Origin: Parcubacteria group bacterium
GTDB taxonomy: Bacteria > Patescibacteriota > Minisyncoccia > Moranbacterales > UBA2206
DNA: 64,000 nt
Reading direction: 5' to 3'
Assembly: GCA_041661275.1 (NCBI GenBank)
Contig: JBAZUU010000002.1
Location: 137,148 to 201,147 of the forward strand
Shown here one piece after another: positions 1 to 63,860 of the stretch. Below the pieces are notes generated by a model. The model saw only the letters and a program-made list of their open reading frames with translations. It had not been told where the DNA came from and did no database searches. Made by a program: the position numbers and the translations under genes. Within the stretch, counting starts at the first letter, position 1. The number at the start of each line of letters is the position of its first letter.

Positions 1-770
1 GGCTCACGCCGCTTAAGATTATAAATTTCAGAAAGCGATTCGGACAGACAGCCGCTTTTGACGCCGGCATAAAAGAAGCCAAGGGCGAGATCATCATCAC
101 TATGGACGGTGATCTGCAAAATGATCCGGCAGACATAAAATTGCTGCTGCAAGAGATGGACAAGGGCTTTGATGTGGTTTCCGGTTGGCGGCAATCAAGA
201 AAAGATCCGATCATGAAAAAAGTTTTCTCGCGCACGGCCAATCTTCTTCGCAAGATTCTTATTCGGGATAATATACATGATTCCGGGTGTTCGCTCAAAG
301 CTTTTCGGCGCGCTTGTTTTCATGACGTCGATCTTTTTGGCGAGATGCACCGATTTATCCCGGCTATATTGGAGATGCAGGGCTATAAAGTTGGTGAGGT
401 TGTCGTGTCGCATCATCCGCGATTGCACGGCAAAACAAAATATAACTGGAAAAGGGGACTCAAGGGTTTTGTTGATATGATTTCTGTCTGGTTCTGGCGA
501 AAATATGCCAATCGGCCACTACACCTTTTTGGCGGTTCCGGAATAGTCGCAGCCATTCTAGGAATGGCCATACTCATTTGGATGGCTATTGAAAAAATAT
601 TCTATGGCGCGTCGCTGGCCGAAAAGATCTGGCCACTTATGGGTGTATTTTTCATTATGATCGGCATCCAACTTTTCATTTTTGGCCTTATGGCGGACAT
701 TATGATCAAAAATTATTACAAAGAAAGGAAGACGATGAATTACTCAATAAAGGAGATTGTGGAGCAGTAG
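1..770 (+). CDS. GT2 glycosyltransferase (dolichol-phosphate mannosyltransferase/ArnC-like), 5' end truncated by the window, C-terminal TM helices
   Basis: Reading frame is open back to position 3 (..IIITMDGDLQND). Conserved GT2 C-terminal region plus two hydrophobic helices. Confidence 0.75.
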   Translation, partial: LTPLKIINFRKRFGQTAAFDAGIKEAKGEIIITMDGDLQNDPADIKLLLQEMDKGFDVVSGWRQSRKDPIMKKVFSRTANLLRKILIRDNIHDSGCSLKAFRRACFHDVDLFGEMHRFIPAILEMQGYKVGEVVVSHHPRLHGKTKYNWKRGLKGFVDMISVWFWRKYANRPLHLFGGSGIVAAILGMAILIWMAIEKIFYGASLAEKIWPLMGVFFIMIGIQLFIFGLMADIMIKNYYKERKTMNYSIKEIVEQ

Positions 771-22999: not shown

Positions 23000-23058
23000 A
23001 ATTTAATTGTAATATATAAATCGAAATAAGGAAAATTAAAAATTTTCAATAGTCAGAC

Positions 23059-24735: not shown

Positions 24736-24737
24736 TT

Positions 24738-25523: not shown

Positions 25524-25535
25524 AAATTTAATCCG

Positions 25536-27170
25536 TTAATTTTTTAGGATTAGGACGGTTAGTCCGGTAAATTTTTTTCCAGTGATTATTTCGCGATCCC
25601 AGACTTTTTGGCCGACCGGAATTTCGCCCGACTCATTTTCCCTGAGGTAAAAAACCGGACTTTCCGGAGGAACTTCATCCAGACCGTCATATTTTAGAAG
25701 GTCGGTTCCGATGCCGCGTTTTTTGGTAAAATAATTGACCGGACGGAAAAATCTTTCAGCGAGGCCATTTTGGCCGCCAAGATATGCTTTTGGGAATATG
25801 CCGGACATATTGGCCAATTCATATTGATAGATATGTTCTACTTCAGAAAGGGTGCTATTTTTGGAATTATTTTCCAATCCGGCCATATAGTTTTGAGCTG
25901 TTTTTGCGTCTCTGGCAAGACAAAGGATAATAAGAGTGACAACGACGGCCGCGGCCAAACCTTTTCCCCATAGACCGAATATTTTTTCCGTCTCCAAAAT
26001 TACAAGTCCCAAAAGCACCAGAGGAACCATATAGAGATTGATAAAATAACCGACAAATATAATCTTAGCGATAGGAATCAGTATCACGAAAGATAGGAAA
26101 TTAAAAAGAATAATGATTCCCAAAAAGCGCTTTTTTTTGATTTCTTTTTCCCGAAAAAAATATCTGAATAACAAATAATAGCCGATGACGGAGAAAATGA
26201 CGCTTAAGGTTATGCCGAAATAATATTTATAATTTTCCGCGCTTGTGCCTTGCGGGTCACGAAAAATAATATTGCACGGGTCGTCCGAACTAAAAGCGGA
26301 GATAGTGTGCGAATTGGCCTGGATCTGGCAGGCAAAGATGTGAAAAGTGTCCCTCCCGAGATGGCTGCCGGAACCGGAGCTGGAAGTGAAGCCTTTTAAA
26401 AAATATTGCGTGTTTTTCCAATGGGAATCAAATTCTGACATTATCTGCGTAGTGTTGAGGACGAGAGTGGCGGCCAGAATAACCAGGGAAATCTTCCAGA
26501 TGTCGGGCGTTTTTTTCCGCCAAAGATAGAAAAAAATCACCAAAGACATCGGCGGCAAAACGATGAGCAAGGTAGTATGAAGCTGGACGCAAATCCCCGT
26601 GCCGATTCCGATCAAGATGCCCCAAAAGTAGGCCATTTTTCCGCTTGAATCCATCAATTTTAGCAGAGAATATAAATAGACAAGAATAAAAAAAGGAATA
26701 AGGTTGGGATTAGATGAGAAGCGAGCGTTTATTATCATAAAATAAGAAACACTCATAATGGCAGTGAGCGCAAGTGACACATTTTTTCCAAAATACTCTC
26801 GCAAAAAGAAAAAGAGAAGCGGGATGGCCAGGATAGAAAAAAAGACGCTCGGGTAGGCCATCTTGTCCGGATAATTGCCGAATATTTCTTCTGATATATA
26901 GGAAAACTGATAATATACCGGGCCGAGCCTGAATCTGGTGACGCCGGCATTGGGTCCCAGGTACGGCAAATGGTCATTCTTGTTTTCCAGGGCATTGCTG
27001 ATGAGTGACGCGTCTCTCACTTGATCGCGGCTGAACCGCAACCAGTCGTGGAAGTTATAAGTTCTGAGAAATATTCCTGCCAGAACGATAAGAGACAAAA
27101 TGATGACGGTTTTTTTGTTTTTTTTTAATGTGTCATAAAAGATATGCATTGTTTTGTTTTGAAATACCAT
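25536..27170 (-). CDS. GT-C fold glycosyltransferase, PMT/ArnT-like, paralog 3
   Basis: IFLRTYNFHDWLRFSRDQVRDA..LPYLGP..FRLGPVYYQ block. Confidence 0.8.
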   Translation of the reverse strand: MVFQNKTMHIFYDTLKKNKKTVIILSLIVLAGIFLRTYNFHDWLRFSRDQVRDASLISNALENKNDHLPYLGPNAGVTRFRLGPVYYQFSYISEEIFGNYPDKMAYPSVFFSILAIPLLFFFLREYFGKNVSLALTAIMSVSYFMIINARFSSNPNLIPFFILVYLYSLLKLMDSSGKMAYFWGILIGIGTGICVQLHTTLLIVLPPMSLVIFFYLWRKKTPDIWKISLVILAATLVLNTTQIMSEFDSHWKNTQYFLKGFTSSSGSGSHLGRDTFHIFACQIQANSHTISAFSSDDPCNIIFRDPQGTSAENYKYYFGITLSVIFSVIGYYLLFRYFFREKEIKKKRFLGIIILFNFLSFVILIPIAKIIFVGYFINLYMVPLVLLGLVILETEKIFGLWGKGLAAAVVVTLIILCLARDAKTAQNYMAGLENNSKNSTLSEVEHIYQYELANMSGIFPKAYLGGQNGLAERFFRPVNYFTKKRGIGTDLLKYDGLDEVPPESPVFYLRENESGEIPVGQKVWDREIITGKKFTGLTVLILKN

Positions 27171-29519: not shown

Positions 29520-29611
29520 AGTTTTAGTCCATTACGTTTAGTTATTGCTAAAATACTCAAAATACCCTAAAATTTAAAATAGCCTACAGAATATATTGTA
29601 CAGGCAAACTT

Positions 29612-31402
29612 ATGAAAAATAAAGCCTTGGGTTTCATCAGGCAAAATCGATTGCCTATCATTTTTCTAGCAATATTTCTTTTGGGCGCTTTTCTGCGCGC
29701 CTACCATTTCTCCGACTGGTTGCATTTTGAGCTGGATCAGTCGCGAGACGCTAAGGTCATCGACCTGGCTATAGTCGAAGGGCCGTCCAATTTGCCGCTT
29801 CTCGGACCCAAGGCGGCCGGAACATTTTTGCGCTTGGGACCGGCTTTTTATTATTTCAAATATTTAAGCGCTTTGGTTTTCGGCGATACTCCGGCGGGAG
29901 TGGCGATGATAGTTATGCTTTTTGGAGTTTTGGCTATCCCGATCTTCTATCTTTTCGCGAAAAGGTATTTTGGCAGTAAACTTTCGCTCGGTATTACTTT
30001 TATTTTTTCCGTTTCCCTGTATCTTGTGATGTATTCCCGTTTTTCCTGGAATCCCAATCCTTTGCCGCTCTTCACTTTGCTCACTTTCTATTCTCTTTTG
30101 AGAACGGTGGATAAAAATGAAAAAAGACAAGGTCTTTGGCTGATGGCCACGGCGTTGTTTTTAGCTATCGCCACCCAGATGCATTTTTTGGCTTTTGTGG
30201 CAGTGCCGGCCATAACATTTCTTTTTTTAGTCTATAAAAGGCCGCGGATAAAACTAAAGTATTGGCTTGGAGCGGTAGCGATAGCAGTCTTTTTGTATGT
30301 TCCGGCCATAATCAACGATATTGAAACCGGCGGTGATAATATTGGCCAATTTTTGGAAGTAGCCCAGGGTAAGTCGGGGAAAAGCGACCATGACCTGATA
30401 GAGAAGAGCATAAAAAGCTATAACGAAAATGCCTTGGGATACGCGACAGTAATATTCGGCCTGGAAAAAAGAGAACTTCCCCGGGTCATTTTTGAAAAAA
30501 GCAAATTGTTTAGTTCTATTTGTGATGATGGCTGTAAGAACGAATTAGGAGGGGGAATTTTTGCGCTTTTGTTTTTCACTCTGGGAATAATACTGCTTAT
30601 CATAAACATCAAAAAAGAAAAAGACCCTCAAAAAAAAGATTTTTTGGTTCTGACTTCTTTCTGGTTTTTTGTAGTTTTGGGACTTTATGTCCCTATATCT
30701 TATGACATTTCGCCCCGCTTTTTCCTCTTGGTGGCGGCCATTCCGTTTATTTTTTTGGGATTAATGCTGAAATCTCTGAAAAGTCTTATGAAAAACAAAA
30801 AAATAAACATGGTCATCGTATCGGTTGTAATTTTGGCGGTTGCCGGATATAATTTACAGAAAATAAAACAGCGCTTCTGGCAACTGGGAAATGCGTCTGG
30901 CGCGTCATTTAAAGTGGAAACAGACAGAATTCTCAAAGAAAAAACAAGAGTGACTCTGGAACAGCAGGAAAAAATAATCAGCTATGTATTATTCACCCAG
31001 AAAAAAAACGGTTTTCCGGTCTATCTCAATAGCGATCCGGAATACAGAAGATCGTTTCTATTCCATCTGGATCAGAATAATATCCCAAGAGACGATTTTC
31101 GCAACGCGACCAATAGCGGGAAAGTTTATGAACATGGGAATTATTTTTTGATCTATCCGACCCTTTCCAACTGGAAGAAAGATTTGAAAAAATATTCGGC
31201 CAATTTTGACCTGCAAAACCAAAAAGAATTCGGGACGCTAACTCTTTTTGAACTCAAGCCAAAGCCGGAAGCTATAAACGCGACAGAACAAGATTTTGCT
31301 CCAAAGGGAAAAGCAAAGAACCAATCCGGCACGCCGGTGAGATACAAATGGGAAGAGATTTTCAATGATAGCGCCAGCGATGAAAACGCCACGAATAATT
31401 AA
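29612..31402 (+). CDS. GT-C fold glycosyltransferase, PMT/ArnT-like, paralog 4
   Basis: AFLRAYHFSDWLHFELDQSRDA..NLPLLGP..LRLGPAFYY block. Confidence 0.8.
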   Translation: MKNKALGFIRQNRLPIIFLAIFLLGAFLRAYHFSDWLHFELDQSRDAKVIDLAIVEGPSNLPLLGPKAAGTFLRLGPAFYYFKYLSALVFGDTPAGVAMIVMLFGVLAIPIFYLFAKRYFGSKLSLGITFIFSVSLYLVMYSRFSWNPNPLPLFTLLTFYSLLRTVDKNEKRQGLWLMATALFLAIATQMHFLAFVAVPAITFLFLVYKRPRIKLKYWLGAVAIAVFLYVPAIINDIETGGDNIGQFLEVAQGKSGKSDHDLIEKSIKSYNENALGYATVIFGLEKRELPRVIFEKSKLFSSICDDGCKNELGGGIFALLFFTLGIILLIINIKKEKDPQKKDFLVLTSFWFFVVLGLYVPISYDISPRFFLLVAAIPFIFLGLMLKSLKSLMKNKKINMVIVSVVILAVAGYNLQKIKQRFWQLGNASGASFKVETDRILKEKTRVTLEQQEKIISYVLFTQKKNGFPVYLNSDPEYRRSFLFHLDQNNIPRDDFRNATNSGKVYEHGNYFLIYPTLSNWKKDLKKYSANFDLQNQKEFGTLTLFELKPKPEAINATEQDFAPKGKAKNQSGTPVRYKWEEIFNDSASDENATNN

Positions 31403-37154: not shown

Positions 37155-37172
37155 GATTTATAGCGATTCCTT

Positions 37173-37239
37173 CCTCTCCCTTCGAGAGAGGATGTCAGCC
37201 AGAATTTTAAGAAAAATTCAGGCTGACAGGGGAGGGCTC
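37173..37239. repeat. MITE/REP-like element family 2, type A (CCTCTCCC-TTCG-AGAGAGG + GTCAGCC..GGCTGAC + GGGAGGG)
   Basis: Nested hairpins; near-identical to 57848-57913 and related to 62425-62481. Confidence 0.6.
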
Positions 37240-37285
37240 TTAATTAAATTCACTAAAATATATATTTTTTCCGTTTTCTATAGTA

Positions 37286-37340
37286 CTCTCTCTGTCACTA
37301 TAAGAATCGTGACATCTCTCCCAAAGGGAGAGAGGGACAC
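37286..37340. repeat. MITE/REP-like element family 2, type B
   Basis: CTCTCTC-TGTCAC..GTGACA-TCTCTCCC-AAAG-GGAGAGAGGG; same architecture as 62525-62573 and 41760-41808. Confidence 0.55.
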
Positions 37341-37348
37341 TTTAAATC

Positions 37349-40657: not shown

Positions 40658-42649
40658 TTATTTCCTATAATACACAGCAATATCGTTACTCATATAAACC
40701 TGATTGAATTCTGGCAGTTTTTGGAATTGGGGAGCGTCATACATTGGATTAATAACCAAAAAATCAGTTTTAGTGTCTGAAAAACATTGTTTTGCCTCAT
40801 CGGAACCGGGGCTGGAGATCATAACTAGCGTACAAATTTCGCCGCTGCGGCTGCCTTGCGCTTCATAGCGGCTAAAAAATCCACGTGATTGGGGATATTT
40901 ATACCCGCGCATAAAAAACAATTTCATCCAGGAATCGGCAGTGATATAGTTGTGATCTTTGAGGATCTGGTCGTTGGCGTTTGTATTATCGGCCAGATAT
41001 TTTGAAACATCAAAAGTCTGATTGAGTTGGGTGAGTTCCGCTTGTTTTTTGAAAGCTTGGGCGGAGTCATTGAGTCCTGTAACCAAAACAAAAGCTAAAA
41101 GGATGAGAAATGCTGATTTCAGAAGTTTGTCCATCACATACGGTTTTTCGCATAATTTCTTGCCCCAAAGTGTTTCGTATGATTCCGGACGAAAAACAGT
41201 ATAAAAAGCAAAGGCGGAGAGAATGGCCAGGGGATAGCTTAGATAATTTCCAATGCGGCTTGATGGCAAATCAACAAATAGCAAATTAGGAAAAGATGAC
41301 ATAATAAAAAGCATAAAAGTCCAAGAGGCAAGAAGCGCATATCCGAAATTTTTTCTTCGGAAAGTCAAGATCAGTAATAGAAATCCCAAAAATCCAAGTG
41401 CAAGACGCGGCTCACCGACTGTTTGTTTGATGTTGGTGATGGTGAGGCCGACCCGCGTTGATTTTGTGGCTGCTCCGACAGCGGTGTCAACGGCTTTAGT
41501 GTTGACATAAGTCGGAGTAAAGACAAAAAAGAAAAATATGAGGCCAAGGACAAAAATTCCCAAAACTTGCGGCGAAAAAATAATTTTAGCGGATTTTTTG
41601 AGAACAACTTCTACGTCTTTATAGTTAACGATCAAAAATAGGGGAATGAGCAAGAGGAATATGAACAAAAATATAAAAGACGTGAGGTGGTGGGTGTAGA
41701 AAAGGCCAAAGGTGGTGAAGACGGCGAGGGAAAGGAAAGTCTTACTATTTTTAATAAGAGCCCTCTCCTGTCGCGAAGACGCGACATCCTCTCCCAGAAG
41801 GAGAGGAGGATATTGATTTTTCGAATTAAGAAATTCGAAAGTTCTGTAGTAGAAATAAAATGCCAGTGGCATAAGGAAATTACCGAAAATATTTCCCATG
41901 ACACCACCACTGACATATTTGGCTTGGGGGGATGCGACTGCAAAAAGAACGCCCAAAAAAAGTAATGTTAAAATAGCAATTAATTTATTCTTAAAAATTC
42001 GCAAAGTTAAAATGAAAACAGTCAGGATCCCTAGTAAATTTATTAAGAATAAAACAACAACGGGCCAGCCGGTAAGAAAATTTAATCCGGTCAAAATGTT
42101 AATGCTGGCAAACATGGTGTGTTCGCCAATAATGAAATCAGGCATTCCTTCATAACTGGTCAGTTGATGAGTTTCGGCAATAGTTTTGGCCCAATAGAGA
42201 TGATGGCCAAAATCAGTGGCTGTCGGCGCTATGGCGGTGGAAAGATAGGCAGTCTTAATGAAAATGGTCAGAAATAGCAAAAGTAAAATTAATATAAATT
42301 GGTTTTTGGAGAAAGAAAATAATTTATCTTCGGGCTCGTTTTGGACACGGAGTGTCCAATTGGACACTCCGTGTCCAAGGAATTTATAAATGGAAAAACA
42401 AACCGCTGAAAAAAATAAAACTCCTAAAATTATAGATATTCGTGTAATGCCTATATTTAACTTCGAATAAGTAAAAAGAATAAAATCAACAACAATTATA
42501 CTTAGGCCAAAAGAAATAATAAATCTTTCCAATGTGCTTAGTGCTGCGCTTTTTCTAAACACAGCCAAAAGCAAACAAAATCCCGGCAAAAACATCAAAA
42601 ATCCCACGGCCAGGAAAAATAATATTTGGTTTTGGATAATATTAAGCAT
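40658..42649 (-). CDS. Large polytopic membrane protein, GT-C-like (putative glycosyltransferase); contains in-frame palindromic inserts
   Basis: 663 aa, more than 12 TM helices. Insert-encoded peptide PPLLLGEDVASSRQERAL from the family-2 element (41760-41808). A 38-nt perfect palindrome at 42341-42378 encodes GHGVSNWTLRV. Confidence 0.55.
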   Translation of the reverse strand: MLNIIQNQILFFLAVGFLMFLPGFCLLLAVFRKSAALSTLERFIISFGLSIIVVDFILFTYSKLNIGITRISIILGVLFFSAVCFSIYKFLGHGVSNWTLRVQNEPEDKLFSFSKNQFILILLLLFLTIFIKTAYLSTAIAPTATDFGHHLYWAKTIAETHQLTSYEGMPDFIIGEHTMFASINILTGLNFLTGWPVVVLFLINLLGILTVFILTLRIFKNKLIAILTLLFLGVLFAVASPQAKYVSGGVMGNIFGNFLMPLAFYFYYRTFEFLNSKNQYPPLLLGEDVASSRQERALIKNSKTFLSLAVFTTFGLFYTHHLTSFIFLFIFLLLIPLFLIVNYKDVEVVLKKSAKIIFSPQVLGIFVLGLIFFFFVFTPTYVNTKAVDTAVGAATKSTRVGLTITNIKQTVGEPRLALGFLGFLLLILTFRRKNFGYALLASWTFMLFIMSSFPNLLFVDLPSSRIGNYLSYPLAILSAFAFYTVFRPESYETLWGKKLCEKPYVMDKLLKSAFLILLAFVLVTGLNDSAQAFKKQAELTQLNQTFDVSKYLADNTNANDQILKDHNYITADSWMKLFFMRGYKYPQSRGFFSRYEAQGSRSGEICTLVMISSPGSDEAKQCFSDTKTDFLVINPMYDAPQFQKLPEFNQVYMSNDIAVYYRK
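41760..41808. mobile_element. MITE family 2 (type B) copy inserted in-frame within a CDS
   Basis: CCCTCTCCTGTCGCGAAGACGCGACATCCTCTCCCAGAAGGAGAGGAGG, ~92% identical to the intergenic copy at 62525-62573. Confidence 0.6.
42341..42378. repeat. 38-nt perfect palindrome inside a CDS (TTGGACACGGAGTGTCCAATTGGACACTCCGTGTCCAA)
   Basis: Two self-complementary 15-mers (GGACAC-NNN-GTGTCC) in inverted arrangement around AATT. Confidence 0.6.
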
Positions 42650-46457: not shown

Positions 46458-47639
46458 ATGAAAACAATTGGCATTAATGCGTCGTTTATCAGAAAGCCTA
46501 ATACTGGTATTGGGCAGGTTACAATTAATTTTTTAAGGAAATTAATTGAGTTAAAAGTTCAAAGTGAAAAATTAAAAGTTATTTTGTACCTGGAAGAGGA
46601 TTTGCCTAAAAACTTTAAATTACCTGATAATTTTGAATGTCGAGTTTTTTTGCCGATATGGAAACGGGATGATCTTATTCGCAAAATTTGGTGGGAAAAA
46701 TGTTTGTTACCACGGCAAGTAAAAAAAGATAATTGTGATGTATTTTTCAGCGTTTACCAATGCCCGACAGCGATAGAAAACATCAAGCATATAATGTTGG
46801 TGCATGACATAATTCCAAAATTATTTCCCGAATATCTTAATAATTTTAGAAAAAAACATTATCAAAAATTGACGGAAAAAGCCATCAGATCAGCGGATAA
46901 GATTTTGGCCGTTTCTAGAAGAACAGAAAAGGATCTGATTCAGCATTTGGGGGTTGAGCCGGAAAAAATTACGGTAAACTACATTGATATTGATGAAATT
47001 TATAAAAATAAACCGGACGAAAAGAAAATTGCCAAGGTTTTGAAAAAATATTCCGCCTATGGCGGAAGATTAAAGCCGGGATATATTTTGGCTGGCGGGG
47101 GATTGGAAGTGCGGAAAAATGTGGAAGGAGTGATCCGGGCTTATGATTATTTATATAAACGAAACAAACAAGAACATTTTATTGGCGAAATGCCAAAATT
47201 GGTGGTTTATGGCAAGCTTTTGCCCCAACTGGCACCGCTTGTCACTGATGGGGAAAAATTGGCACGCGAATTAAATCTGACCAAGCAAATACGATTTCTT
47301 GATATGACGCCACAAGATGATATGCCGGCGATATTTTCTGAAAGTTTAATGTTCGTCTACCCGTCGCATTATGAAGGATTTGGCATGCCTCCGCTCGAAG
47401 CGATGAATATAGGCGTGCCTACGATAATTTCTAAATCATCTTCTCTCCCGGAAGTAGGCGGCGACGGTGCTTTATATTGCAAGGACGATGATATTCATGA
47501 TATAGCTATGGTGATGCGAAATGTGCTGCTCAATAAAAATTTACGTGAGACCTTGAAGGTACGCGCCAAAATGCAAGCCCAAAAATTTTCGTGGGATAAG
47601 TTTGTGGAGAAGTTTTTGAATATAATTGAAAATGTTTGA
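46458..47639 (+). CDS. GT4 glycosyltransferase
   Basis: PSHYEGFGMPPLEAMNIGVPTIIS..E motif. Confidence 0.85.
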   Translation: MKTIGINASFIRKPNTGIGQVTINFLRKLIELKVQSEKLKVILYLEEDLPKNFKLPDNFECRVFLPIWKRDDLIRKIWWEKCLLPRQVKKDNCDVFFSVYQCPTAIENIKHIMLVHDIIPKLFPEYLNNFRKKHYQKLTEKAIRSADKILAVSRRTEKDLIQHLGVEPEKITVNYIDIDEIYKNKPDEKKIAKVLKKYSAYGGRLKPGYILAGGGLEVRKNVEGVIRAYDYLYKRNKQEHFIGEMPKLVVYGKLLPQLAPLVTDGEKLARELNLTKQIRFLDMTPQDDMPAIFSESLMFVYPSHYEGFGMPPLEAMNIGVPTIISKSSSLPEVGGDGALYCKDDDIHDIAMVMRNVLLNKNLRETLKVRAKMQAQKFSWDKFVEKFLNIIENV

Positions 47640-49260
47640 ATTTTTAAACAAACCCAAAACCTATCTTCTTCTTGGCAATGTTTTACTTGTTTTCTTTTTG
47701 ATATTGCTAAATAACTTGAAAATTTTGCCGCTGGCATTTGGTGACTTTTTGTTTTTTGCATTTTTGGCATTGGCAGTTGCGCTATATCGTCCCGGCTGGT
47801 GTTTTTTGCTTTTTGTCGGAATGATACCGCTGGAAAACATCAATTTGGCGCCGGCAGAATTAGGAATTGCCATTCGTCCATATCAATTTATCGGCGCCAT
47901 CATAATTTTGGCGCTTCTGATTCGTCTGGCGACAAAAAGATTATCGTTTAAACTGATAAAGCCGGAATGGTACGATTGGCTGGTCTTGATTTTTGTGGCG
48001 TCAGGATTTTTGAGTATTATTGGCGCGCCGGATAAAATAGCAAGCTTTAAATTATCGATAATTATCGCTACTTTCGTGGCGCTATATTATTTAGTCAGAA
48101 ATTATATCCAAAACAGTGAAGACTTGAAAAGAGTGATCCCGTTTTTCGTTAGTTCATCAGTTATTGTGGTTTTTTATGGTATTTGGCAAAATTGGCGTTT
48201 TTTGCATAGCTTGTCTAATTTTGAAGCGATGCCGGGAAGGCCGAACGCGACATTCACGGAAGCGGATTGGTTGGGTATGTTTCTAGTGTTATTAATAAGT
48301 GCAATATTTATCCTCATCCGTCATTCTGAGCGGAATGAGGCCTTTGGCCGAATGCAGTCGAAGAATCTACCAAACAATATTACTAGTTATAATCAAGAGC
48401 AGATCCCTCGACTACGTTCGGATAAAATCCTCACTTCGCTCGGGATGACGGGTTACTATATTTTTCTTATTTTAACTTTTATCTTACTAGCTCTCACTGT
48501 CTCTCGCAGCGCATGGCTGGCGGCGCTTGTTGTTTATGTTGTATTTGTGACTGTATTTTTTACTGATTTACGCCTAAAAGATTGGAAATGGCGTGAAACG
48601 AGCTGGCTTAAATTTAAAATAATAGCGTCTTTAGCTGTTGCCATCGCCATTGTTTACATTTTTCATTTGACTAATTTCCAACTTTTTAACCGTGTGCAAA
48701 GCACCGGAACGGGGCAACAAAAAATTACTGTCAGCTGTGAGGAGAACAAGGAATTGCCGGAGTATATTGATGTAGTTGGTGAACTGGAAGAATTCAGTTG
48801 TCGGCATATCAACCTGGAAGAAATTGAAAGTGAAAAGGCGGTTGGTCATTTTGTAAAAGAAGTATTTCGAAAAGATCCAAATGTAAGCACTCGAAATGAA
48901 ATATATAAGAAATCGTGGGTGGAAATAAAAAAACATCCAATCCTGGGCATTGGATGGGGAAATATTAACCAAATTTTAGGCAAAGATGGTCGAGGAACAC
49001 CATTGAATTCTAGCAATATTTTCCTGGAAACTTGGCTCGGAGCGGGGATGTTCGGACTGTTGTCTCTAGTAATCTTGCTTGGGTATATTTTACTGAAATC
49101 CGTCAAAAATTATTATCAAGCTCAAAATGATGTACAAAAGGTCGTAAATCTGTTTATATTGATCAGCTGGCTTGGATTAGTCACGACAAACCTATTTAAC
49201 GCCGGAATATTTTTAGGAATACTTTGGGTGTGGCTGGCGATAGCTCAAATTAAGGAATAG
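47626..49260 (+). CDS. O-antigen ligase-like (Wzy_C) polytopic membrane protein, carrying an in-frame MITE insertion
   Basis: LTVSRSAWLAALVVYVV Wzy_C signature; ~12 TM helices. The hydrophilic insert ..HSERNEAFGRMQSKNLPNNITSYNQEQIPRLRSDKILTSLGMTG is encoded by the element at 48318-48451. Confidence 0.7.
   Translation: MKMFEFLNKPKTYLLLGNVLLVFFLILLNNLKILPLAFGDFLFFAFLALAVALYRPGWCFLLFVGMIPLENINLAPAELGIAIRPYQFIGAIIILALLIRLATKRLSFKLIKPEWYDWLVLIFVASGFLSIIGAPDKIASFKLSIIIATFVALYYLVRNYIQNSEDLKRVIPFFVSSSVIVVFYGIWQNWRFLHSLSNFEAMPGRPNATFTEADWLGMFLVLLISAIFILIRHSERNEAFGRMQSKNLPNNITSYNQEQIPRLRSDKILTSLGMTGYYIFLILTFILLALTVSRSAWLAALVVYVVFVTVFFTDLRLKDWKWRETSWLKFKIIASLAVAIAIVYIFHLTNFQLFNRVQSTGTGQQKITVSCEENKELPEYIDVVGELEEFSCRHINLEEIESEKAVGHFVKEVFRKDPNVSTRNEIYKKSWVEIKKHPILGIGWGNINQILGKDGRGTPLNSSNIFLETWLGAGMFGLLSLVILLGYILLKSVKNYYQAQNDVQKVVNLFILISWLGLVTTNLFNAGIFLGILWVWLAIAQIKE
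48318..48451. mobile_element. MITE family 1 copy (~134 nt, 23-nt hairpin-forming TIRs CCGTCATTCTGAGCGGAATGAGG / CCTCACTTCGCTCGGGATGACGG) inside the O-antigen ligase ORF
   Basis: TIRs and internal GCAGTCGA.G..ATCT / AGCAGATCC.TCGACT.CGTTCGGATAAA blocks are shared with the intergenic copy at 60261-60425. Confidence 0.65.
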
Positions 49261-49337
49261 AAAAAGCCCAGGTTGATACCTCGGGCTTGGTCGGCGAGCG
49301 TGAACGATGAAGTTTCATCGAATCATGCCGCCTTTCT

Positions 49338-49358
49338 GGAACGTTTCCGTTCCTTTTT
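49338..49358 (+). terminator. Weak candidate terminator after the O-antigen ligase gene
   Basis: GGAACG-TTTC-CGTTCC followed by TTTTT. Confidence 0.3.
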
Positions 49359-49554
49359 GGAAATAATTTTGTCAGAGTAGCAGGGCTTGGGATTGCCCCT
49401 GCAAACAAATGGAAAGCATTTTCCGTGAAAAAGAACAAAAAATAAGCAGTTCTGTCTCATCTCTTCGGTGATGGTTGGCGACATTAATCACTCCTTCCTT
49501 AGTGTTGCCGGGATTTTTACACACGAAAACCAATTATAACTCACATATCAATTT

Positions 49555-50691
49555 ATGTCAAATATCGGAATAGATATTCGTAATATCGGGAAATATAGAA
49601 CTGGTGATGAAGTGGTGTTTTTTAATTTGGTAAAGAATTTGGCTGTTATTGATGCGAATAATGATTACAAATTATTTACCGACATTGCAGATGCTGAAAC
49701 GCTCAAAAGTATCAAAAAAAGCTTGGAAATAGAAAATAAGAGCAATTTTGAAATTATTTCTCTCCCGGCTGCCAACAAATTCACTTGGAATTTTTGGACG
49801 CTTCCGCGATATCTTCAAAAAAATGAAGTAGACACATATTTGACGCAATATATCACGCCATTTTTTGTGCCAAAGCGCATCAAGATAATAACAATTATCC
49901 ACGATGTTTCTTTCAAGGTGTATAAACAATTCATCAAATTTAGCGATCTATTTTTTCTAAATATTCTGATCCCGAGAAGTTTAAAAAGAGCGGACAAGAT
50001 CATCGCTGTTTCGCAGTTTACCAGGGATGAGATTATAAAATTATATAAAATTGATGCAGATAAGGTAGAATGGATTCATAATGCTGTTGCTGGTGATTTT
50101 TTGAGTGCTGATTTGTCCGAAGAAAAATTGAAAAAAGTTCGAGAAAAATATAAATTGCCAGACAAGTATATTTTGTATCTCGGAACGCTTCAGCCGAGAA
50201 AAAATATCCCGATGCTAATCGAAGCTTTTTCTGTTTCCAAGGTTGAACCTTGGAAGTTGGTCATTGCTGGCGGAAAAAGCCATAATTTTGATCCAAAAAT
50301 CGACGAAATGGTGGAAAAATATAATTTGCAAGACAAAGTAGTTTTTCCAGGGTTTATTGATGAAGAAGACAAAGCGGCGGTTATGAAGGCAGCAAATATA
50401 TTTTGCTTTCCTTCATTTTATGAAGGCTTTGGCATTCCAATTTTGGAAGCGATGTCGGTTGGCACTCCGGTTATCGCGTCCAATATCGCGCCACACAAAG
50501 AAATAGCGGAATACGCAATATTATATTTTGATCCAGAAAGTTCGCAAGAGCTGGCCGATAGAATTAATTCACTGGTGGGTAATGACAATTTACGGCGAGA
50601 ACTGATCCAAAAAGGACTGGAACAGGTAAAAAAATTCTCCTGGGAAAAAACAGCCAGAAAGATGATAGGTATTTTTGAAGGGATGAAATAA
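49555..50691 (+). CDS. GT4 glycosyltransferase
   Basis: PSFYEGFGIPILEAMSVGTPVIAS..E motif. Confidence 0.85.
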   Translation: MSNIGIDIRNIGKYRTGDEVVFFNLVKNLAVIDANNDYKLFTDIADAETLKSIKKSLEIENKSNFEIISLPAANKFTWNFWTLPRYLQKNEVDTYLTQYITPFFVPKRIKIITIIHDVSFKVYKQFIKFSDLFFLNILIPRSLKRADKIIAVSQFTRDEIIKLYKIDADKVEWIHNAVAGDFLSADLSEEKLKKVREKYKLPDKYILYLGTLQPRKNIPMLIEAFSVSKVEPWKLVIAGGKSHNFDPKIDEMVEKYNLQDKVVFPGFIDEEDKAAVMKAANIFCFPSFYEGFGIPILEAMSVGTPVIASNIAPHKEIAEYAILYFDPESSQELADRINSLVGNDNLRRELIQKGLEQVKKFSWEKTARKMIGIFEGMK

Positions 50692-51763: not shown

Positions 51764-51809
51764 CCCGCCGGGCGTGCCAATTGTGGTGCCCGGCGGTTTT
51801 TTATTTTTA
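51764..51809 (+). terminator. Rho-independent terminator after purE
   Basis: CCGCCGGGC..GCCCGGCGG stem followed by TTTTTTATTTTT. Confidence 0.7.
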
Positions 51810-51850
51810 CGAAATACGAAATTAAGTACGAAATACGAAGGTACGAAAAT
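51808..51850. repeat. TACGAAA repeat element (TTTTACGAAATACGAAATTAAGTACGAAATACGAAGGTACGAAAATCG)
   Basis: Near-identical to the 45-nt in-frame insert in iscS at 63147-63192; weaker relative at 55807-55840. Confidence 0.6.
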
Positions 51851-57827: not shown

Positions 57828-57847
57828 ATAATTAGTAACTTACATTA

Positions 57848-57913
57848 TCCTCCTCTCCCTTTGGGAGAGGATGTCAGCCTGAATTTTCTTAAATTCTGGC
57901 TGACAGGAGAGGG
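57848..57913. repeat. MITE/REP-like element family 2, type A copy
   Basis: CCTCTCCCTTTGGGAGAGGATGTCAGCCTGAATTTTCTTAAATTCTGGCTGACAGGAGAGGGA, ~90% identical to 37173-37239. Confidence 0.6.
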
Positions 57914-59796: not shown

Positions 59797-60267
59797 TTAT
59801 TTGAATCTGATCTTGTGATATTTGAGCAAAAAATAAAGAAGAAAATAAAAGACCAGGGAAATAGCAAGAGAGACAATTATAAATCCGGTGATAAGTGGCA
59901 GGAGCAAGTTAGTGAAAATTGTTTCTGTAAAAAAATATTTCCAGCCCAAATTATGAGTGGCTTTAAAGTTATTTATAAGAGTTTCGGAATTAGTATGAAA
60001 TAAAAATCCGCCCACTGTTGCGGCCAGAGACATAATGAGAAAGGTCGTCCACATGTTGACGGCTAAAACGCCAGCAGTAGCCGAGAGGCGGTTAAAACGC
60101 AAAATAGAAGCCGTAATCAGCGTTGTGGCCACGCCTTCCCCGGGCATAATGCCCCAAAAAATACCCAAAGCCGCTCCGGCTGCGACTTTATGGGGAGAAT
60201 CGTCAATGAGGAAGAATTTTTTGATGAAGTTTTTGATTTTTTGAAGCATATAATAATGCGCCGTCAT
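59797..60267 (-). CDS. DUF2062-family membrane protein
   Basis: DDSPHKVAAGAALGIFWGIMPGEGVATTLITASILR matches the DUF2062 core. Confidence 0.6.
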   Translation of the reverse strand: MTAHYYMLQKIKNFIKKFFLIDDSPHKVAAGAALGIFWGIMPGEGVATTLITASILRFNRLSATAGVLAVNMWTTFLIMSLAATVGGFLFHTNSETLINNFKATHNLGWKYFFTETIFTNLLLPLITGFIIVSLAISLVFYFLLYFLLKYHKIRFK

Positions 60268-60425
60268 CCCGAGCGTAGTGATGTCGCATAGCGACAGAAC
60301 GCAGTCGAGGGATCTGCTTTACATTATTTCTGGCTATAATTTCTGCCAGTAATAAAACTAGAAGTAGTCATTAGCAGATCCTTCGACTTCGTTCGGATAA
60401 ATCCTCACTCCGCTCAGAATGACGG
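60261..60425. mobile_element. MITE family 1 copy (~165 nt), intergenic
   Basis: TIRs CCGTCATCCCGAGCGTAGTGATG / CCTCACTCCGCTCAGAATGACGG and internal blocks matching 48318-48451. Confidence 0.65.
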
Positions 60426-60434
60426 GAAACGGGG

Positions 60435-61559
60435 TTATTTCTTTTTTACTATTAAACTGGCACTTTCCTTATCCACTACTTTGGCTTTTTCCACTCCTTG
60501 TCTGGCTTCCAGCGGCAAAACACCCAAAATATTTCTAAGCGCGATACCGTCAACTTTTCTGATGTCGTCCCACTTTCCAAGCGGTTCCAAAATTTCTTTT
60601 AATTTTTTATCATCATATTTATATGTCTTGCGCAAAGTTCTGGCGATTATCCCACCTTCGGAAAAAACCCGTTCCACGCCTTCCTGGTTCATATAATTGA
60701 CAATATCTTCCTGCAACTTTCCAATTCTTTCTTTGGTTATATTCATGGCCGAGCGTAGTTCGATAAATTCAGAAATCAGATTATTAACTTCTTCTGTATC
60801 AATTTTTCGCAGCTCCTTAAATTTATGTTTCCACATCGGGCATTGATTTTGATATCCGCACCAGTCGCAAAGAGGGGATACTTGCGGCTCAAATTTGCTT
60901 TCTTTTATTTTGGCGATAGTTTCCAGAAATTGTTTGCGGCTTGATTCCAATTGTTCTTCGGTTCTTGTGGCCGAAAGTTTTACGCCGTGCTTTAGAAAAT
61001 ATAAACTGACTTTTATTTTATCCAAATTATTTTTTTCGTTGGGGTATTGAGAAAGAAAAGCGTTCAGATATACCGAAAGCTGGATGTCGTTTTCCACTCG
61101 CTCTTGCGTCGGCATCTTTTTGGTCGTTTTATAATCAATAATTTCATATCCATCATCCGTCCGGTCAATGCGGTCAATGATGCCAGAGATGATATGATTC
61201 TCGTCCTCGCCTGGCAGTTCGATTTGAAAGCGCGATTCCAAGTTCACGATATTAAAATCAACCGGATTATTCCGCTTGAAATAGTCCTGGATAATTTTCA
61301 CGCCCTGGGTAAAAGCAGCCCGTTCTTCGTCCGGATTTTCGAAAATTACCGGATTCCAGGAATTAGAAAAATGTTCCATGGCCTGGTCTAGGTTGGGGGA
61401 TATGATACCCGGAGTATGGATAAATTTCATAACATCATGCAAGGTCGAGCCAAAAACCGCCTCTTTGGATTTGGGCGTCCTGATCTTGTCAATTTCCTGA
61501 AACTTATATTTCAGGGGGCAAGTTCTGTATGTGTCAAAAGCACTGTATGAAATACGCAT
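60435..61559 (-). CDS. PD-(D/E)XK nuclease superfamily protein (RecB/Cas4-like domain) with C-terminal Cys cluster
   Basis: IDRIDRTDDGYEIIDYKT (D..E.DYK) motif; C-terminal CDWCGYQNQCPMW cysteines. Confidence 0.65.
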   Translation of the reverse strand: MRISYSAFDTYRTCPLKYKFQEIDKIRTPKSKEAVFGSTLHDVMKFIHTPGIISPNLDQAMEHFSNSWNPVIFENPDEERAAFTQGVKIIQDYFKRNNPVDFNIVNLESRFQIELPGEDENHIISGIIDRIDRTDDGYEIIDYKTTKKMPTQERVENDIQLSVYLNAFLSQYPNEKNNLDKIKVSLYFLKHGVKLSATRTEEQLESSRKQFLETIAKIKESKFEPQVSPLCDWCGYQNQCPMWKHKFKELRKIDTEEVNNLISEFIELRSAMNITKERIGKLQEDIVNYMNQEGVERVFSEGGIIARTLRKTYKYDDKKLKEILEPLGKWDDIRKVDGIALRNILGVLPLEARQGVEKAKVVDKESASLIVKKK

Positions 61560-62424: not shown

Positions 62425-62481
62425 CTCTCCTTCTCTCCCTTTGGGAGAGAAGTCCTGATTCTTATCAGGACAGAGAGGGAA
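62425..62481. repeat. MITE/REP-like element family 2, type A variant
   Basis: TCTCTCCC-TTTG-GGAGAGA + AGTCCTGAT-TCT-TATCAGGAC + AGAGAGGGA. Confidence 0.55.
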
Positions 62482-62524
62482 CTTAGTAAGGCAAAATATA
62501 TAATTTAGTGAATTTAACATAAAA

Positions 62525-62573
62525 CCCTCTCCTGTCGCGAAGACGCGACCTCCTCTCCCGAAGGGAGAGGAGG
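62525..62573. repeat. MITE/REP-like element family 2, type B copy
   Basis: CCCTCTCCTGTCGCGAAGACGCGACCTCCTCTCCCGAAGGGAGAGGAGG; paralog of the intragenic 41760-41808 copy. Confidence 0.6.
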
Positions 62574-62594
62574 AAGAGGAATAAATAATTTTTT

Positions 62595-63860
62595 ATGAGA
62601 AAAATTTATTTAGATCACGGAGCAACAACGCCAGTTGATAAAAAAGTATTAGCGGCCATGATGCCGTATTTTTCCGATAAGTTTGGCAATGCTATGTCTA
62701 TCCATAATTTTGGCTCTGTTGCCAATGAAGCGGTGGAAAAATCAAGGAAGCAAACTGCGGATTTTTTTGGCGCGCAGCCAGAAGAAATGATTTTTACCAG
62801 TGGCGCGACAGAATCAAATAATTTAGTGGTAAAGGGCGTATTAAATGCATATTATTTTACTCCTAAGGCACTCGGTGCCCAACACGAAGGAATAGAGAGG
62901 CACCGAGTGCCTTCAAGGCCTCATATAATCACCACTGCCTTTGAGCATCATTGCGTCCTGGATTCTTGTAAAGAAGTAGAAAAAGAAGGACTGGCTGAGG
63001 TGACTTATATTAAGCCAAATAAAGACGGGATTATAAAAGTGGAAGATATCAAAAAAGCCATCAAGTCTAACACCATTTTAGTGTCTGTTATGTATGTTAA
63101 CAACGAAATTGGAACAGTTCAGTCTATTGCCGAAATTGGAAATCTTTTACGAAATACGAAAAAAATACGAAATACGAAAGTACGAACGAAATATCCCATA
63201 TTTCACACTGACGCGACACAAGCAATTAATTATTTTGACTGTAATGTTGATAAGTTCGGTGTAGACTTATTGTCTATGTCCGCGCACAAAATTTATGGAC
63301 CGAAAGGAATCGGCGCTTTGTATATTAGAAAAGGTACGCCAATAAAAAGAGTCCAGGACGGCGGGGGACAGGAAAATAATAAACGAGCCGGGACGCATAA
63401 TGTTCCAGGTATTGTGGGCTTGGGCGCGGCCATGGAATTAGTTAAAAAGGAAAAAGTAAAAGGTAAAAGTATTTTAGAAATAAGAAATTATCTTATAGAA
63501 AGAGTATTAAAAGAAATTCCGCAGGCGAAACTGAATGGATCAAAAATAAAACGTTCTCCGAACAATGCTAATTTTTCTTTTAAAAACGTAGAAGGGGAGA
63601 GTCTTCTTATGATGCTTGATATGGAAGGTATTGCCGCTTCAACTGGCAGCGCTTGTACCTCTGGTAATCTTGAACCGTCGCACGTTCTTATGTCTCTTGG
63701 CATGAAACACGAAGACGCTCATGGGTCGCTCAGATTAACGCTTGGAAAAAGCACAACAAAAAAAGAAATTGACTATACGGTAAATAAATTAAAAAAAATC
63801 GTGGAAAAGATCAGGAAAGTCTCGGGGAAAGTTTTGGAAGAATATTATTCGAAAAAATAA
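62595..63860 (+). CDS. iscS: Cysteine desulfurase IscS/NifS, with two in-frame repeat-derived insertions
   Basis: YLDHGATTP, SAHKIYGPKG (PLP Lys) and STGSACTSG (active Cys). Insert peptides TPKALGAQHEGIERHRVPSRP and RNTKKIRNTKVRTKY come from 62865-62913 and 63147-63192. Confidence 0.9.
   Translation: MRKIYLDHGATTPVDKKVLAAMMPYFSDKFGNAMSIHNFGSVANEAVEKSRKQTADFFGAQPEEMIFTSGATESNNLVVKGVLNAYYFTPKALGAQHEGIERHRVPSRPHIITTAFEHHCVLDSCKEVEKEGLAEVTYIKPNKDGIIKVEDIKKAIKSNTILVSVMYVNNEIGTVQSIAEIGNLLRNTKKIRNTKVRTKYPIFHTDATQAINYFDCNVDKFGVDLLSMSAHKIYGPKGIGALYIRKGTPIKRVQDGGGQENNKRAGTHNVPGIVGLGAAMELVKKEKVKGKSILEIRNYLIERVLKEIPQAKLNGSKIKRSPNNANFSFKNVEGESLLMMLDMEGIAASTGSACTSGNLEPSHVLMSLGMKHEDAHGSLRLTLGKSTTKKEIDYTVNKLKKIVEKIRKVSGKVLEEYYSKK
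62865..62913. mobile_element. Perfect 15-bp-arm palindrome (AAGGCACTCGGTGCC-N19-GGCACCGAGTGCCTT) in-frame inside iscS
   Basis: Seen directly; falls between conserved IscS blocks where homologs have no extra residues. Confidence 0.6.
63147..63192. mobile_element. TACGAAA-repeat element copy, in-frame inside iscS
   Basis: TTTTACGAAATACGAAAAAAATACGAAATACGAAAGTACGAACGAAAT is almost identical to the intergenic copy at 51808-51850. Confidence 0.6.

What the first reader, a model, noticed from the sequence alone, without database searches (positions are those of the whole stretch)
48318..48451. MITE (family 1) inserted in-frame inside the O-antigen ligase gene; sister copy intergenic at 60261-60425
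A ~134-nt element bounded by 23-nt hairpin-forming TIRs (CCGTCATTCTGAGCGGAATGAGG ... CCTCACTTCGCTCGGGATGACGG) interrupts the Wzy_C-like ORF without breaking the frame. It adds a ~45-residue hydrophilic loop (..ERNEAFGRMQSKNLPNNITSYNQEQIPRLRSDKILTSLGMTG..). A 165-nt copy with matching TIRs and internal blocks lies in an intergenic region. In-frame tolerance of palindromic mobile elements is the hallmark of Rickettsia palindromic elements. Finding the same behaviour here would be a notable parallel, and it means the ligase periplasmic loop was remodelled by a transposable element.
Basis: seen in the sequence. Interest (0 to 1): 0.7.

Follow-up and report, generated by a model that had tools for sequence, protein, structure and literature searches.

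The report
In-frame palindromic repeat in glycan-ligase loop
A 138-base hairpin-forming repeat sits in-frame in a cytoplasmic loop of a surface-sugar enzyme of a Moranbacteria (CPR) bacterium, and in related species that same loop holds at least six other unrelated repeats, so it tolerates, and perhaps attracts, repeat DNA.

Summary
Window 48316-48453 is a near full-length palindrome (RNA MFE -62 kcal/mol, z -8). It is read through in-frame (46 codons, no stop) by an intact Wzy_C/WaaL-like gene, and a sister copy is intergenic at 60261-60425.

- The loop is cytoplasmic, not periplasmic.
- No target-site duplication or transposase was found, so "MITE" is unproven.
- The element belongs to a cross-phylum palindrome class (GTCATTCTGAGCG...CGAAGAATCT) that is almost always intergenic elsewhere.
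- Orthologs are not shorter. In 81 Moranbacteria species the TM8-TM9 loop is hypervariable (33-171 nt) and always in frame. It holds strong hairpins in 12 species (at least 6 unrelated families) and 7-nt tandem arrays in many others.
- The closest relatives (62-71% identity) each carry a different filling, so the window's copy is lineage-specific.

Other in-frame copies occur in a DUF1616 membrane protein in this window (41746-41815) and in the neighbouring GT4 gene of relatives.

Best reading: selfish palindromic DNA, translated and tolerated in dispensable loops, as with Rickettsia palindromic elements. The difference is recurrent multi-family turnover at one site. This is a new variant of a known kind, of moderate interest.

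The parts
48316..48453 (+). Family-1 nested palindromic repeat, read in-frame as 46 codons (IRHSERNEAFGRMQSKNLPNNITSYNQEQIPRLRSDKILTSLGMTG). Outer arms are 48318-48340 and 48429-48451. The conserved inner boxes are GTCGAAGAATCTAC (48357-48370) and GCAGATCCCTCGAC (48399-48412).
   Evidence: MFE -62 kcal/mol, z -8.0; nhmmer 96.9 bits.
47626..49260 (+). Intact Wzy_C / WaaL-like polytopic membrane protein (544 aa, about 14 TM helices) that hosts the element in its TM8-TM9 cytoplasmic loop (aa 230-275).
   Evidence: PF04932, E 3e-18; topology; AF2 pLDDT 78.9; WaaL 7TPG, prob 1.00.
60261..60425 (-). Intergenic sister copy of family 1 (165 nt), between the stop of a PD-(D/E)XK nuclease gene (60435-61559, minus strand) and the start of a DUF2062 gene (59797-60267, minus strand).
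   Evidence: (MFE -80.8 kcal/mol, z -8.2).
41746..41815 (-). Family-2 double hairpin (TCCTCTCC..GGAGAGGA plus GTCGCG..CGCGAC), in-frame in the 663-aa DUF1616 membrane protein (ORF 40658-42649, minus strand). It encodes ..QYPPLLLGEDVASSRQERALIKNS... The syntenic relative L202 has a shorter, unrelated small hairpin at this position.
   Evidence: (z -4.7).
37172..37345 (.). Intergenic family-2 copies: a pair of related hairpin modules between the thymidylate kinase and RtcB genes.
   Evidence: (D15, I2, I3, I20).
57840..57887 (.). Intergenic family-2 copy.
   Evidence: (D15, I8, I14).
62428..62574 (.). Two intergenic family-2 modules (62428-62483 and 62525-62574), upstream of the aminotransferase gene.
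   Evidence: (D8, I2, I3, I14).
46549..46581 (+). 7-nt tandem array (AGTTAAA x4.7) inside the upstream GT4 gene (aa ~31-41, ELKVQSEKLKV). This position carries heptamer arrays or mini-hairpin inserts in many orthologs.

Best explanation
The segment is a copy of a non-coding, hairpin-forming dispersed repeat (family 1: YGTCATTCTGAGCG - variable sub-hairpin - GTCGAAGAATCT - AT-rich loop - AGATCCYTCGAC - variable sub-hairpin - CGCTCRGGATGACR). It now occupies the whole short cytoplasmic linker between TM8 and TM9 of a Wzy_C/WaaL-like surface-glycan enzyme in a Candidatus Moranbacteria (CPR) genome. It is transcribed and translated as part of the protein. Copies survive there only when their length keeps the frame and the frame used has no stop; one of the three frames at each end of the element contains TGA. 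The linker is structurally dispensable: AF2 models the encoded arms as low-confidence helical extensions of TM8 and TM9 with a disordered tip pointing into the cytoplasm. The gene therefore stays functional. Across Moranbacteria the same linker is continually refilled by other palindromic families, by 21-nt mini-hairpins and by 7-nt tandem arrays, and short recombination tracts move such fillings between lineages. Shown: the repeat nature, in-frame status, lineage specificity, cytoplasmic location, recurrence and multi-family turnover. Inferred: actual translation, selective neutrality, and the mobilisation mechanism. For mobilisation the likeliest route is a hairpin-recognising, TSD-free mechanism, or spread by recombination.
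For: Repeat nature: 2 window copies against 0 expected, and 13 distinct family-1 copies in about 1.3 Mb of Moranbacteria loci with a clear consensus. Hairpin: z -8. Intact host gene: single ORF with all family-invariant residues aligned, and 81 of 81 orthologs intact in one frame. Translation constraint: all 81 loop lengths are multiples of 3 and stop-free, including the 12 strong hairpins of 63-138 nt. Lineage specificity: the closest relatives L201, L202 and L203 carry a heptamer-type filling, the Fb palindrome (z -7.8) and a third palindrome, while L202 has family-1 copies at other, intergenic sites. Hotspot: 12/81 loops have z<=-4 against 5/324 control segments of the same genes, and at least 6 unrelated families each have dispersed copies elsewhere. 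Families are interleaved on the gene tree. Cytoplasmic, dispensable loop: K+R alternation, AF2 pLDDT <50 at 251-266, and a minimal natural loop of about 6-11 aa in L064 and L075. Same behaviour in other genes: the window's DUF1616 protein, and L008 GT4 filled where L002 and L009 are empty. Recombination: for L001 vs L008, the element plus flanks is 93-99% identical against 76-80% for the rest of the gene.
Against: No close relative with a truly empty ligase loop was found, so the insertion event and its exact boundaries are not seen directly for this copy. No TSD, no cognate transposase and no evidence of recent activity were found. The stems are almost invariant, with only one covarying pair, so structure-based selection cannot be separated from shared descent. 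There are no transcript or peptide data. The roughly 10-fold concentration of hairpins and roughly 40-fold concentration of 7-nt arrays in this one loop is more than simple tolerance obviously predicts. Other cytoplasmic loops of the same protein are hit far less often.
Confidence: 0.75

Rival explanations
1. The loop is a preferred target or is positively selected, not merely tolerant. Either palindromic elements and mini-hairpins integrate preferentially into pre-existing hairpins or heptamer arrays (structure-targeted insertion, as IS elements target REP sequences), or a hairpin/repeat at this point of the mRNA or DNA is useful. Possible uses are a translational pause between TM8 and TM9, attenuation, or slipped-strand on/off switching of surface-glycan genes through the 7-nt arrays.
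For: Strong site concentration: 12/81 loops against 5/324 controls, and 37 period-7 arrays in 62 loops against 95 in all other coding DNA of 1.3 Mb. Mini-hairpins are nested inside heptamer arrays (L025, L063, L067, L070) and inside family-1 arms (L013). The same GT4 and DUF1616 sites are occupied by different hairpins in different species. There is a weak terminator-like match at the element's right end followed by a T-rich tract.
Against: All 81 genes are in the ON frame, so no frameshifted alleles were seen. The arrays are short (3-5 units) and imperfect. The terminator-like count is not above shuffles (4 against 2.2). There is no orientation bias of intergenic family-1 copies relative to transcription. 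Loop content has no conserved sequence or length, as expected for neutral filler.
Confidence: 0.2
2. The window's copy did not transpose into this gene. It arrived by homologous recombination (a short gene-conversion tract) from another Moranbacteria lineage that already carried family 1 in its ligase loop.
For: L001 and L008 are not sisters on the gene tree, yet they share a roughly 250-nt tract (element plus TM-coding flanks) at 93-99% identity inside genes that are 76-80% identical. Family 1 sits in the same frame with a similar right boundary (..RMTG/S followed by TM9) in the window, L001, L008 and L013.
Against: The window's element is only 61-78% identical to those of L001 and L013, which is no better than the flanking gene for L013. 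The left boundary differs by 2 codons. The best match to the window's arm is an intergenic copy in L202 (91% over 54 nt).
Confidence: 0.15
3. It is not an insertion at all: an ancestral loop sequence that happens to be palindromic and is shared with orthologs.
For: Orthologs are about the same length and all have a loop here.
Against: The loop sequence is unrelated in the nearest relatives. The same 130-170-nt consensus occurs in intergenic DNA of this and other genomes and, as a class, in contigs of 34-68% GC.
Confidence: 0.02
4. The gene is a pseudogene, or the element is not translated (RNA excision or ribosomal bypass, as for mitochondrial 'byp' elements or T4 gene 60).
For: A -62 kcal/mol hairpin inside a coding region is a plausible obstacle to ribosomes.
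Against: The frame and stop-free status are preserved in 81/81 loops, including 12 strong hairpins. That would be unnecessary if the segment were skipped. The flanking sequence keeps every invariant residue of the family. There was no Rfam match.
Confidence: 0.03

Closest known systems
Rickettsia palindromic elements (RPEs; Ogata et al. 2000, as summarised in PMC10969869)
   Same: Palindromic repeats of about 100-150 nt with no coding capacity of their own. They are found both between genes and in-frame inside functional genes, adding a peptide segment at a position compatible with the fold. No target-site duplication is evident here; that RPEs also lack one is my own recollection, not checked. 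The host has a small, reduced genome.
   Different: The host is from a different phylum (CPR/Moranbacteria) and no sequence relationship was established. Here the class is overwhelmingly intergenic outside this lineage. In-frame copies concentrate in a few loops of envelope-glycan genes. The same orthologous site is occupied by at least 6 unrelated families in different species, a pattern I do not know to have been described for RPEs.
Bacterial MITEs with in-frame fusions (ERIC, Anabaena MITEs, Coxiella QMITE1, Correia; review PMC10969869)
   Same: Small, multi-copy, terminal inverted repeats, no transposase, occasional in-frame fusion with host ORFs.
   Different: No TSD and no parent IS were identified. 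The whole element is a nested palindrome rather than unique DNA flanked by TIRs.
REP/BIME elements and IS200/IS605-type palindrome-associated elements (my own knowledge)
   Same: Hairpin-defined, TSD-free repeats. Hairpins serve as targets for further insertions, which would explain nesting and site re-use.
   Different: REPs are 20-40 nt and extragenic by definition. No RAYT or TnpA (Y1) gene was seen in the window.
Simple-sequence-repeat contingency loci in surface-glycan genes (e.g. Haemophilus SSRs, PMC2651432)
   Same: Tandem repeats with a unit length not divisible by 3, here 7 nt, inside glycosyltransferase and ligase genes.
   Different: This applies to the orthologs' heptamer arrays and the window's GT4 array, not to the palindrome itself. 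The arrays are short and no OFF alleles were seen.

Membership tests
MITE | Terminal inverted repeats | tested here: met
   23-nt arms: 19 Watson-Crick pairs, 3 G-U wobbles and 1 mismatch. The termini YGTCAT...ATGACR are conserved in 12 copies.
MITE | Target-site duplication flanking the element | tested here: not met
   No direct repeat flanks any of 7 aligned family-1 copies. None is seen at the filled GT4 sites of L008 and L005 compared with the empty sites of L002 and L009.
MITE | Small, non-coding, multi-copy | tested here: met
   100-170 nt. There are 13 copies in about 1.3 Mb of related loci, 2 in the window and 2-3 in L202.
MITE | Cognate autonomous IS with matching ends | tested here: inconclusive
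   No transposase domain was found in any window ORF of 120 aa or more. The rest of the genome is not available.
Rickettsia palindromic elements (behavioural class) | Palindromic repeat found in-frame within functional ORFs as well as intergenically | tested here: met
   In-frame in the ligase, the DUF1616 protein and the GT4 of L008.
Rickettsia palindromic elements (behavioural class) | Insert lies at a structurally permissive surface position | tested here: met
   Cytoplasmic TM8-TM9 linker. AF2 pLDDT is <50 at the tip, and the element is modelled as helical extensions outside the core.
Rickettsia palindromic elements (sequence family) | Sequence homology to RPE-1..10 of Rickettsia | not tested
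Given the cross-phylum GTCATTCTGAGCG class found here, homology is not expected.
Wzy_C / O-antigen ligase family (host gene) | Pfam PF04932 match above the gathering score | tested here: met
   66.4 bits against a cutoff of 31.7.
Wzy_C / O-antigen ligase family (host gene) | WaaL-like fold | tested here: met
   The top Foldseek hit is 7TPG_B (WaaL), E 2e-4, prob 1.00, TM-score 0.56 on the target. A sequence-only PDB search found nothing.
Wzy_C / O-antigen ligase family (host gene) | Ligates O-antigen to lipid A-core | not testable with these tools
   As far as I know, CPR bacteria lack an outer membrane. The neighbours (GT2, GT4, UDP-Glc dehydrogenase, flippase, LytR-CpsA-Psr) suggest a cell-wall glycopolymer polymerase or ligase instead.

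The most novel reading that the evidence does not exclude
The TM8-TM9 linker of this Moranbacteria glycan enzyme, together with matching sites in the neighbouring GT4 and DUF1616 genes, is an evolutionarily persistent landing pad. Pre-existing hairpins or heptamer arrays attract further palindromic elements and 21-nt mini-hairpins through structure-targeted, TSD-free integration, which gives continual in-frame loop replacement. The 7-nt arrays at the same sites may also act as slipped-strand on/off switches for surface-glycan synthesis in CPR bacteria.
Probability: 0.2. Interest if true: 0.75.

Novelty: new variant of a known kind. Interest (0 to 1): 0.55.

Why it matters
In-frame selfish palindromes are textbook only for Rickettsia. 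This finding shows the same behaviour in an unrelated, reduced-genome CPR lineage, so it may be a general outcome when hairpin repeats meet compact, gene-dense genomes. The 81-species series also gives a natural experiment in one fixed protein position. It holds at least six unrelated palindromes, mini-hairpins and heptamer arrays, always in frame. That series can be used to ask what makes a membrane-protein loop permissive, whether hairpin repeats target one another, and how repeat DNA creates new peptide sequence. There is a practical point too. These loops inflate apparent protein divergence, and the same repeat class spawns many spurious 'hypothetical proteins' in metagenome annotations.

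Tried and rejected
1. Rfam scans of the whole window (gathering threshold) and of 49200-49600 (E<=1) found nothing.
2. A strict right-end regex on the metagenome hits missed most copies. I replaced it with a fuzzy match.
3. A 100-nt sliding MFE scan of the window failed to flag even the 138-nt element and mostly picked GC-rich coding DNA, so I abandoned it as a detector.
4. The idea that the conserved G-U/A-C asymmetry of the arms marks a transcribed functional strand was rejected. Intergenic copies are 3 sense and 2 antisense.
5. An intrinsic-terminator role was not supported: there is only a weak match at 48438-48453 and the count is not above shuffles.
6. Phase-variation OFF alleles were not found: 81/81 genes are intact.
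7. A word-indexed protein search with the element peptide profile failed technically, with only 6 candidates. The exhaustive profile search gave 49 hits, mostly short or repeat-array ORFs without Pfam domains, plus one possible real embedding in the glycerate-kinase-like P0122.
8. A sequence search of the PDB with the ligase profile gave no hit. The fold search was needed.
9. No DNA was available for P0006, whose loop peptide is closest to the window's.
10. Literature searches found no report of such elements in CPR/Patescibacteria and no paper containing the motif strings in a relevant context.
Full report
OBSERVATION.
The 23-nt arms at 48318-48340 and 48429-48451 pair with 19 Watson-Crick pairs, 3 G-U wobbles and 1 mismatch. 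The arm motif occurs twice in the window (48318+, 60403-), where 0.00 matches are expected by chance. The whole element is a nested palindrome, not just its ends. As RNA it folds at -62 kcal/mol (z -8.0, 0 of 200 shuffles as good), and the sister copy at 60261-60425 folds at -80.8 kcal/mol (z -8.2). Pairing extends to 48316-48453, which is 138 nt or 46 codons starting on a codon boundary of ORF 47626-49260. That ORF is uninterrupted (544 aa) and matches Pfam Wzy_C (E 3e-18). An identical protein is on record from a 262-kb 'Parcubacteria group bacterium' contig, and the homologs are named Candidatus Moranbacteria / Moraniibacteriota.

WHAT THE ELEMENT IS.
An alignment of seven copies gives a clear consensus: YGTCATTCTGAGCG - variable sub-hairpin - GTCGAAGAATCT(A/G)C - AT-rich loop - GCAGATCCYTCGAC - variable sub-hairpin - CGCTCRGGATGACR. 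Iterated nhmmer finds 13 distinct copies in about 1.3 Mb (80 orthologous Moranbacteria loci plus the window). Four are in the ligase loop (window, L001, L008, L013), seven are intergenic and two are unclear. The stems are nearly invariant. Only the outermost pair covaries (U-A in 8 copies, C-G in 3), and each arm carries its own variable mini-hairpin. No direct repeats flank the copies, and no transposase domain occurs in any window ORF.

Family 1 is therefore the local form of a very widespread cross-phylum palindrome class. In that sample, 43 of 44 assessable copies are not read through by any long ORF. An exhaustive profile search of 1.84 billion protein representatives with the encoded peptide returned 49 hits. 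These are mostly short or repeat-array ORFs without Pfam domains, with one possible true embedding. I found no literature on this motif or on such elements in CPR bacteria. In-frame MITE/RPE fusions are well described elsewhere (PMC10969869).

THE ORTHOLOG TEST.
Contrary to expectation, orthologs are not shorter (515-590 aa). The alignment shows that the element occupies a position that is hypervariable in every ortholog, between the conserved ...LVLLISxIYxLIY and LYxxLTxSFILLILTVSRSAW blocks. I extracted this loop from 81 species.
- All 81 genes are intact in one frame.
- Loop length is 33-171 nt, median 90, and always a multiple of 3.
- Twelve loops are strong hairpins (z<=-4), against 5 of 324 size-matched control segments from the same genes.

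These hairpins belong to at least six unrelated families:
- family 1 (HSERS...LRMT);
- 'VIARE...ARNDM';
- a family matching the window's family 2 (in L006);
- 'RLRGDD';
- 'SGAPE';
- the palindrome in L030.

L203 adds a seventh candidate, 'VGVIRELP...HEPPLR', with a weaker hairpin (z -2.9). Each of the six has dispersed copies elsewhere in the loci.

Many other loops instead hold 3-5 units of 7-nt tandem repeats (AATTTCC, ATTTACG, ARATACG, AAGAAAC, AATTATG), which read as 'ISNFKFQISN'-type peptides. Some have CCTGCC...GGCAGG mini-hairpins nested inside. On a gene tree built with the loop masked, the families are interleaved. One tight clade (L001, L002, L005, L006, L008, L009, L010) contains four families plus a heptamer-only loop. 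The window's closest relatives differ completely:
- L201 (71% identity) has a heptamer-type filling;
- L202 (66%, fully syntenic) has the VIA.. palindrome (z -7.8);
- L203 (62%) has another palindrome.

L202 does carry family-1 copies, but in intergenic DNA (2429-2496 and 9647-9701; up to 91% identical to the window's arm). The window's copy is therefore lineage-specific, and the site is a recurrent sink for repeats.

Recombination also contributes. L001 and L008 are not sisters, yet they share the element plus about 100 nt of flank on each side at 93-99% identity, within genes that are 76-80% identical overall.

WHERE IN THE PROTEIN.
Hydropathy and K+R counts over 33 orthologs give a clean alternation. 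Loops 100-121, 153-175, 230-274, 311-331 and 489-511 are K/R-rich, and the insertion loop averages 5.0 K+R. Loops 68-91, 182-216, 295-300 and the large loop 345-471 with its invariant Cys pair are not. The insertion loop is therefore cytoplasmic, not periplasmic. AF2 (pLDDT 78.9, pTM 0.74) models the element-encoded arms as extensions of TM8 and TM9 with a disordered tip (residues 251-266, pLDDT <50). The best structural match is WaaL 7TPG (prob 1.00). The shortest natural loops are about 6-11 residues (L064 'QNKKNK'), so the linker is dispensable.

IS IT TRANSLATED?
There are no expression data. However, all 81 loops, including twelve hairpins of 63-138 nt, keep the frame and lack stops. That would be unnecessary if the segment were excised or bypassed. 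At each end of family 1, one frame of three contains TGA. This explains why the in-frame copies all use the 'RHSER...LRMT' reading or the '...AQDD' alternative.

GENERALITY.
The behaviour is not confined to the ligase.
- In this window, a family-2 double hairpin (41746-41815, z -4.7) is in-frame in a 663-aa DUF1616 membrane protein. The roughly 85%-identical L202 ortholog has a shorter, different small hairpin there.
- In the upstream GT4, L008 carries a 99-nt palindrome ('YQCPT-VIARESRDDRGNLVLNKFVLNIARLLRYARNDK-NIKHIM') where L002 and L009 are empty ('YQCPT-SIQPYKE-VKHIM'). L005 has an exact 21-nt mini-hairpin ('LPRRQAG') at that site. No TSD is visible at either insert.
- A further GT4 site shows 'SAKGAVPAGRQGSASGG' in L202, 'SAYGG' in the window and nothing in L201 or L008.
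- Of the 35 places matched by the loop-hairpin families (and the intergenic sister-copy query) in the loci, 13 are in ligase loops, 5 are in-frame in other long ORFs and 17 are not read through by a long ORF.

INTERPRETATION.
The best-supported account is selfish palindromic DNA that is translated and tolerated in dispensable loops, which is RPE-like in behaviour. Turnover at this site comes from new insertions, internal deletions (for example the L003 remnant 'HSEWSDRMTE') and short recombination tracts. The degree of site concentration leaves real room for structure-targeted insertion into pre-existing repeats, or for a selected role of repeats at these positions. That concentration is about 10-fold for hairpins and about 40-fold for 7-nt arrays relative to other coding DNA. 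I could not test either idea directly. 'MITE' should be avoided as a label until a TSD or a parent IS is found. 'O-antigen ligase' should be read as 'Wzy_C/WaaL-like glycopolymer ligase or polymerase', given the CPR host and the neighbouring genes (GT2, GT4, UDP-Glc dehydrogenase, flippase, LytR-CpsA-Psr).

VERDICT.
This is a new variant of a known kind: in-frame palindromic repeats in CPR, with multi-family turnover at one orthologous loop. Interest 0.55.

Noticed in passing
window 41746-41815 (ORF 40658-42649, minus strand): A second in-frame palindromic repeat (family 2) lies in a DUF1616 polytopic membrane protein. The syntenic relative L202 has a different small hairpin (GGAAGTTCAACTTCC / GGAAGTTGAACTTCC) at the same position.
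   Followed up: yes
window 46549-46581; L012 8772, L017 8814, L063 8855, L077 8857, L056 8863 and others: A 7-nt tandem array (AGTTAAA x4.7 in the window) lies near residue 30-41 of the upstream GT4 glycosyltransferase. The same position carries other heptamer arrays, some perfect x4.3, or a mini-hairpin insert (L008) in many orthologs. A one-unit slip would frameshift the gene, so this may be a contingency locus.
   Followed up: partly
window 1213-1242, 51808-51848, 63131-63197; also L002 16993, L008 16979-17055, L009 3764 and 8949, L076 4798: Intergenic tandem arrays of TACGAAA(T) 7/8-mers recur across many Moranbacteria loci. Period 7 is the commonest tandem-repeat period in these genomes (212 of 1060 arrays). 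Function unknown.
   Followed up: no
window 49261-49554: The 294-nt spacer after the ligase stop is unusually structured (MFE -97 kcal/mol, z -4.9). It has a perfect TTGACA-17-TATAAT promoter on the minus strand (49561-49533) reading into it. There is no Rfam match and no conservation in the 80 loci, so this may be a lineage-specific small RNA.
   Followed up: partly
window 8772, 14543(-), 15009, 15275, 18318, 21215, 61625(-): There are seven perfect TTATCCACA (DnaA-box consensus) sites where 0.6 are expected. Several lie within larger repeats (D3, D16) just upstream of lexA (8834), recQ (15349), a GT4 gene (18436) and the PD-(D/E)XK nuclease gene (start 61559, minus strand). This could be a regulatory box shared by DNA-repair genes rather than an origin of replication.
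   Followed up: no
L005 9077-9148; L010, L008 and L202 (ligase second cytoplasmic loop and GT4): 21-nt mini-hairpins (CCTGCC-N-GGCAGG type) add exactly 7 residues (LPRRQAG, LPAGEAG, LSADEAG, VPAGRQG). They appear in-frame at several sites and nested inside larger palindromes (L013 right arm) and heptamer arrays.
   Followed up: partly
L001 vs L008, ligase gene alignment columns ~800-1000: A mosaic tract: the element plus about 100 nt of flanks is 93-99% identical between two non-sister species whose genes are otherwise 76-80% identical. This indicates short-patch recombination between Moranbacteria lineages.
   Followed up: partly
window 60247-60267: The terminal ...ATGAC of the intergenic sister copy supplies an in-frame upstream ATG for the DUF2062 gene (alternative start 60267 versus 60249 on the minus strand).
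   Followed up: no
window 20511-31402: Five paralogous PMT_2/GT-C-type membrane glycosyltransferase genes are clustered with YdjC and a phosphoesterase. Together with the GT2, GT4, flippase, Wzy_C and LCP genes, most of the window is devoted to envelope glycans. A type I R-M system (9477-13598) and a RhuM-family gene (17223-18242) are also present.
   Followed up: no
P0122 (461 aa, from the representative library): A glycerate-kinase-like protein from another organism contains three tandem 'PACHSERSEAESKNLSMH' units. This may be an independent in-frame embedding of the same palindrome class outside Moranbacteria.
   Followed up: no
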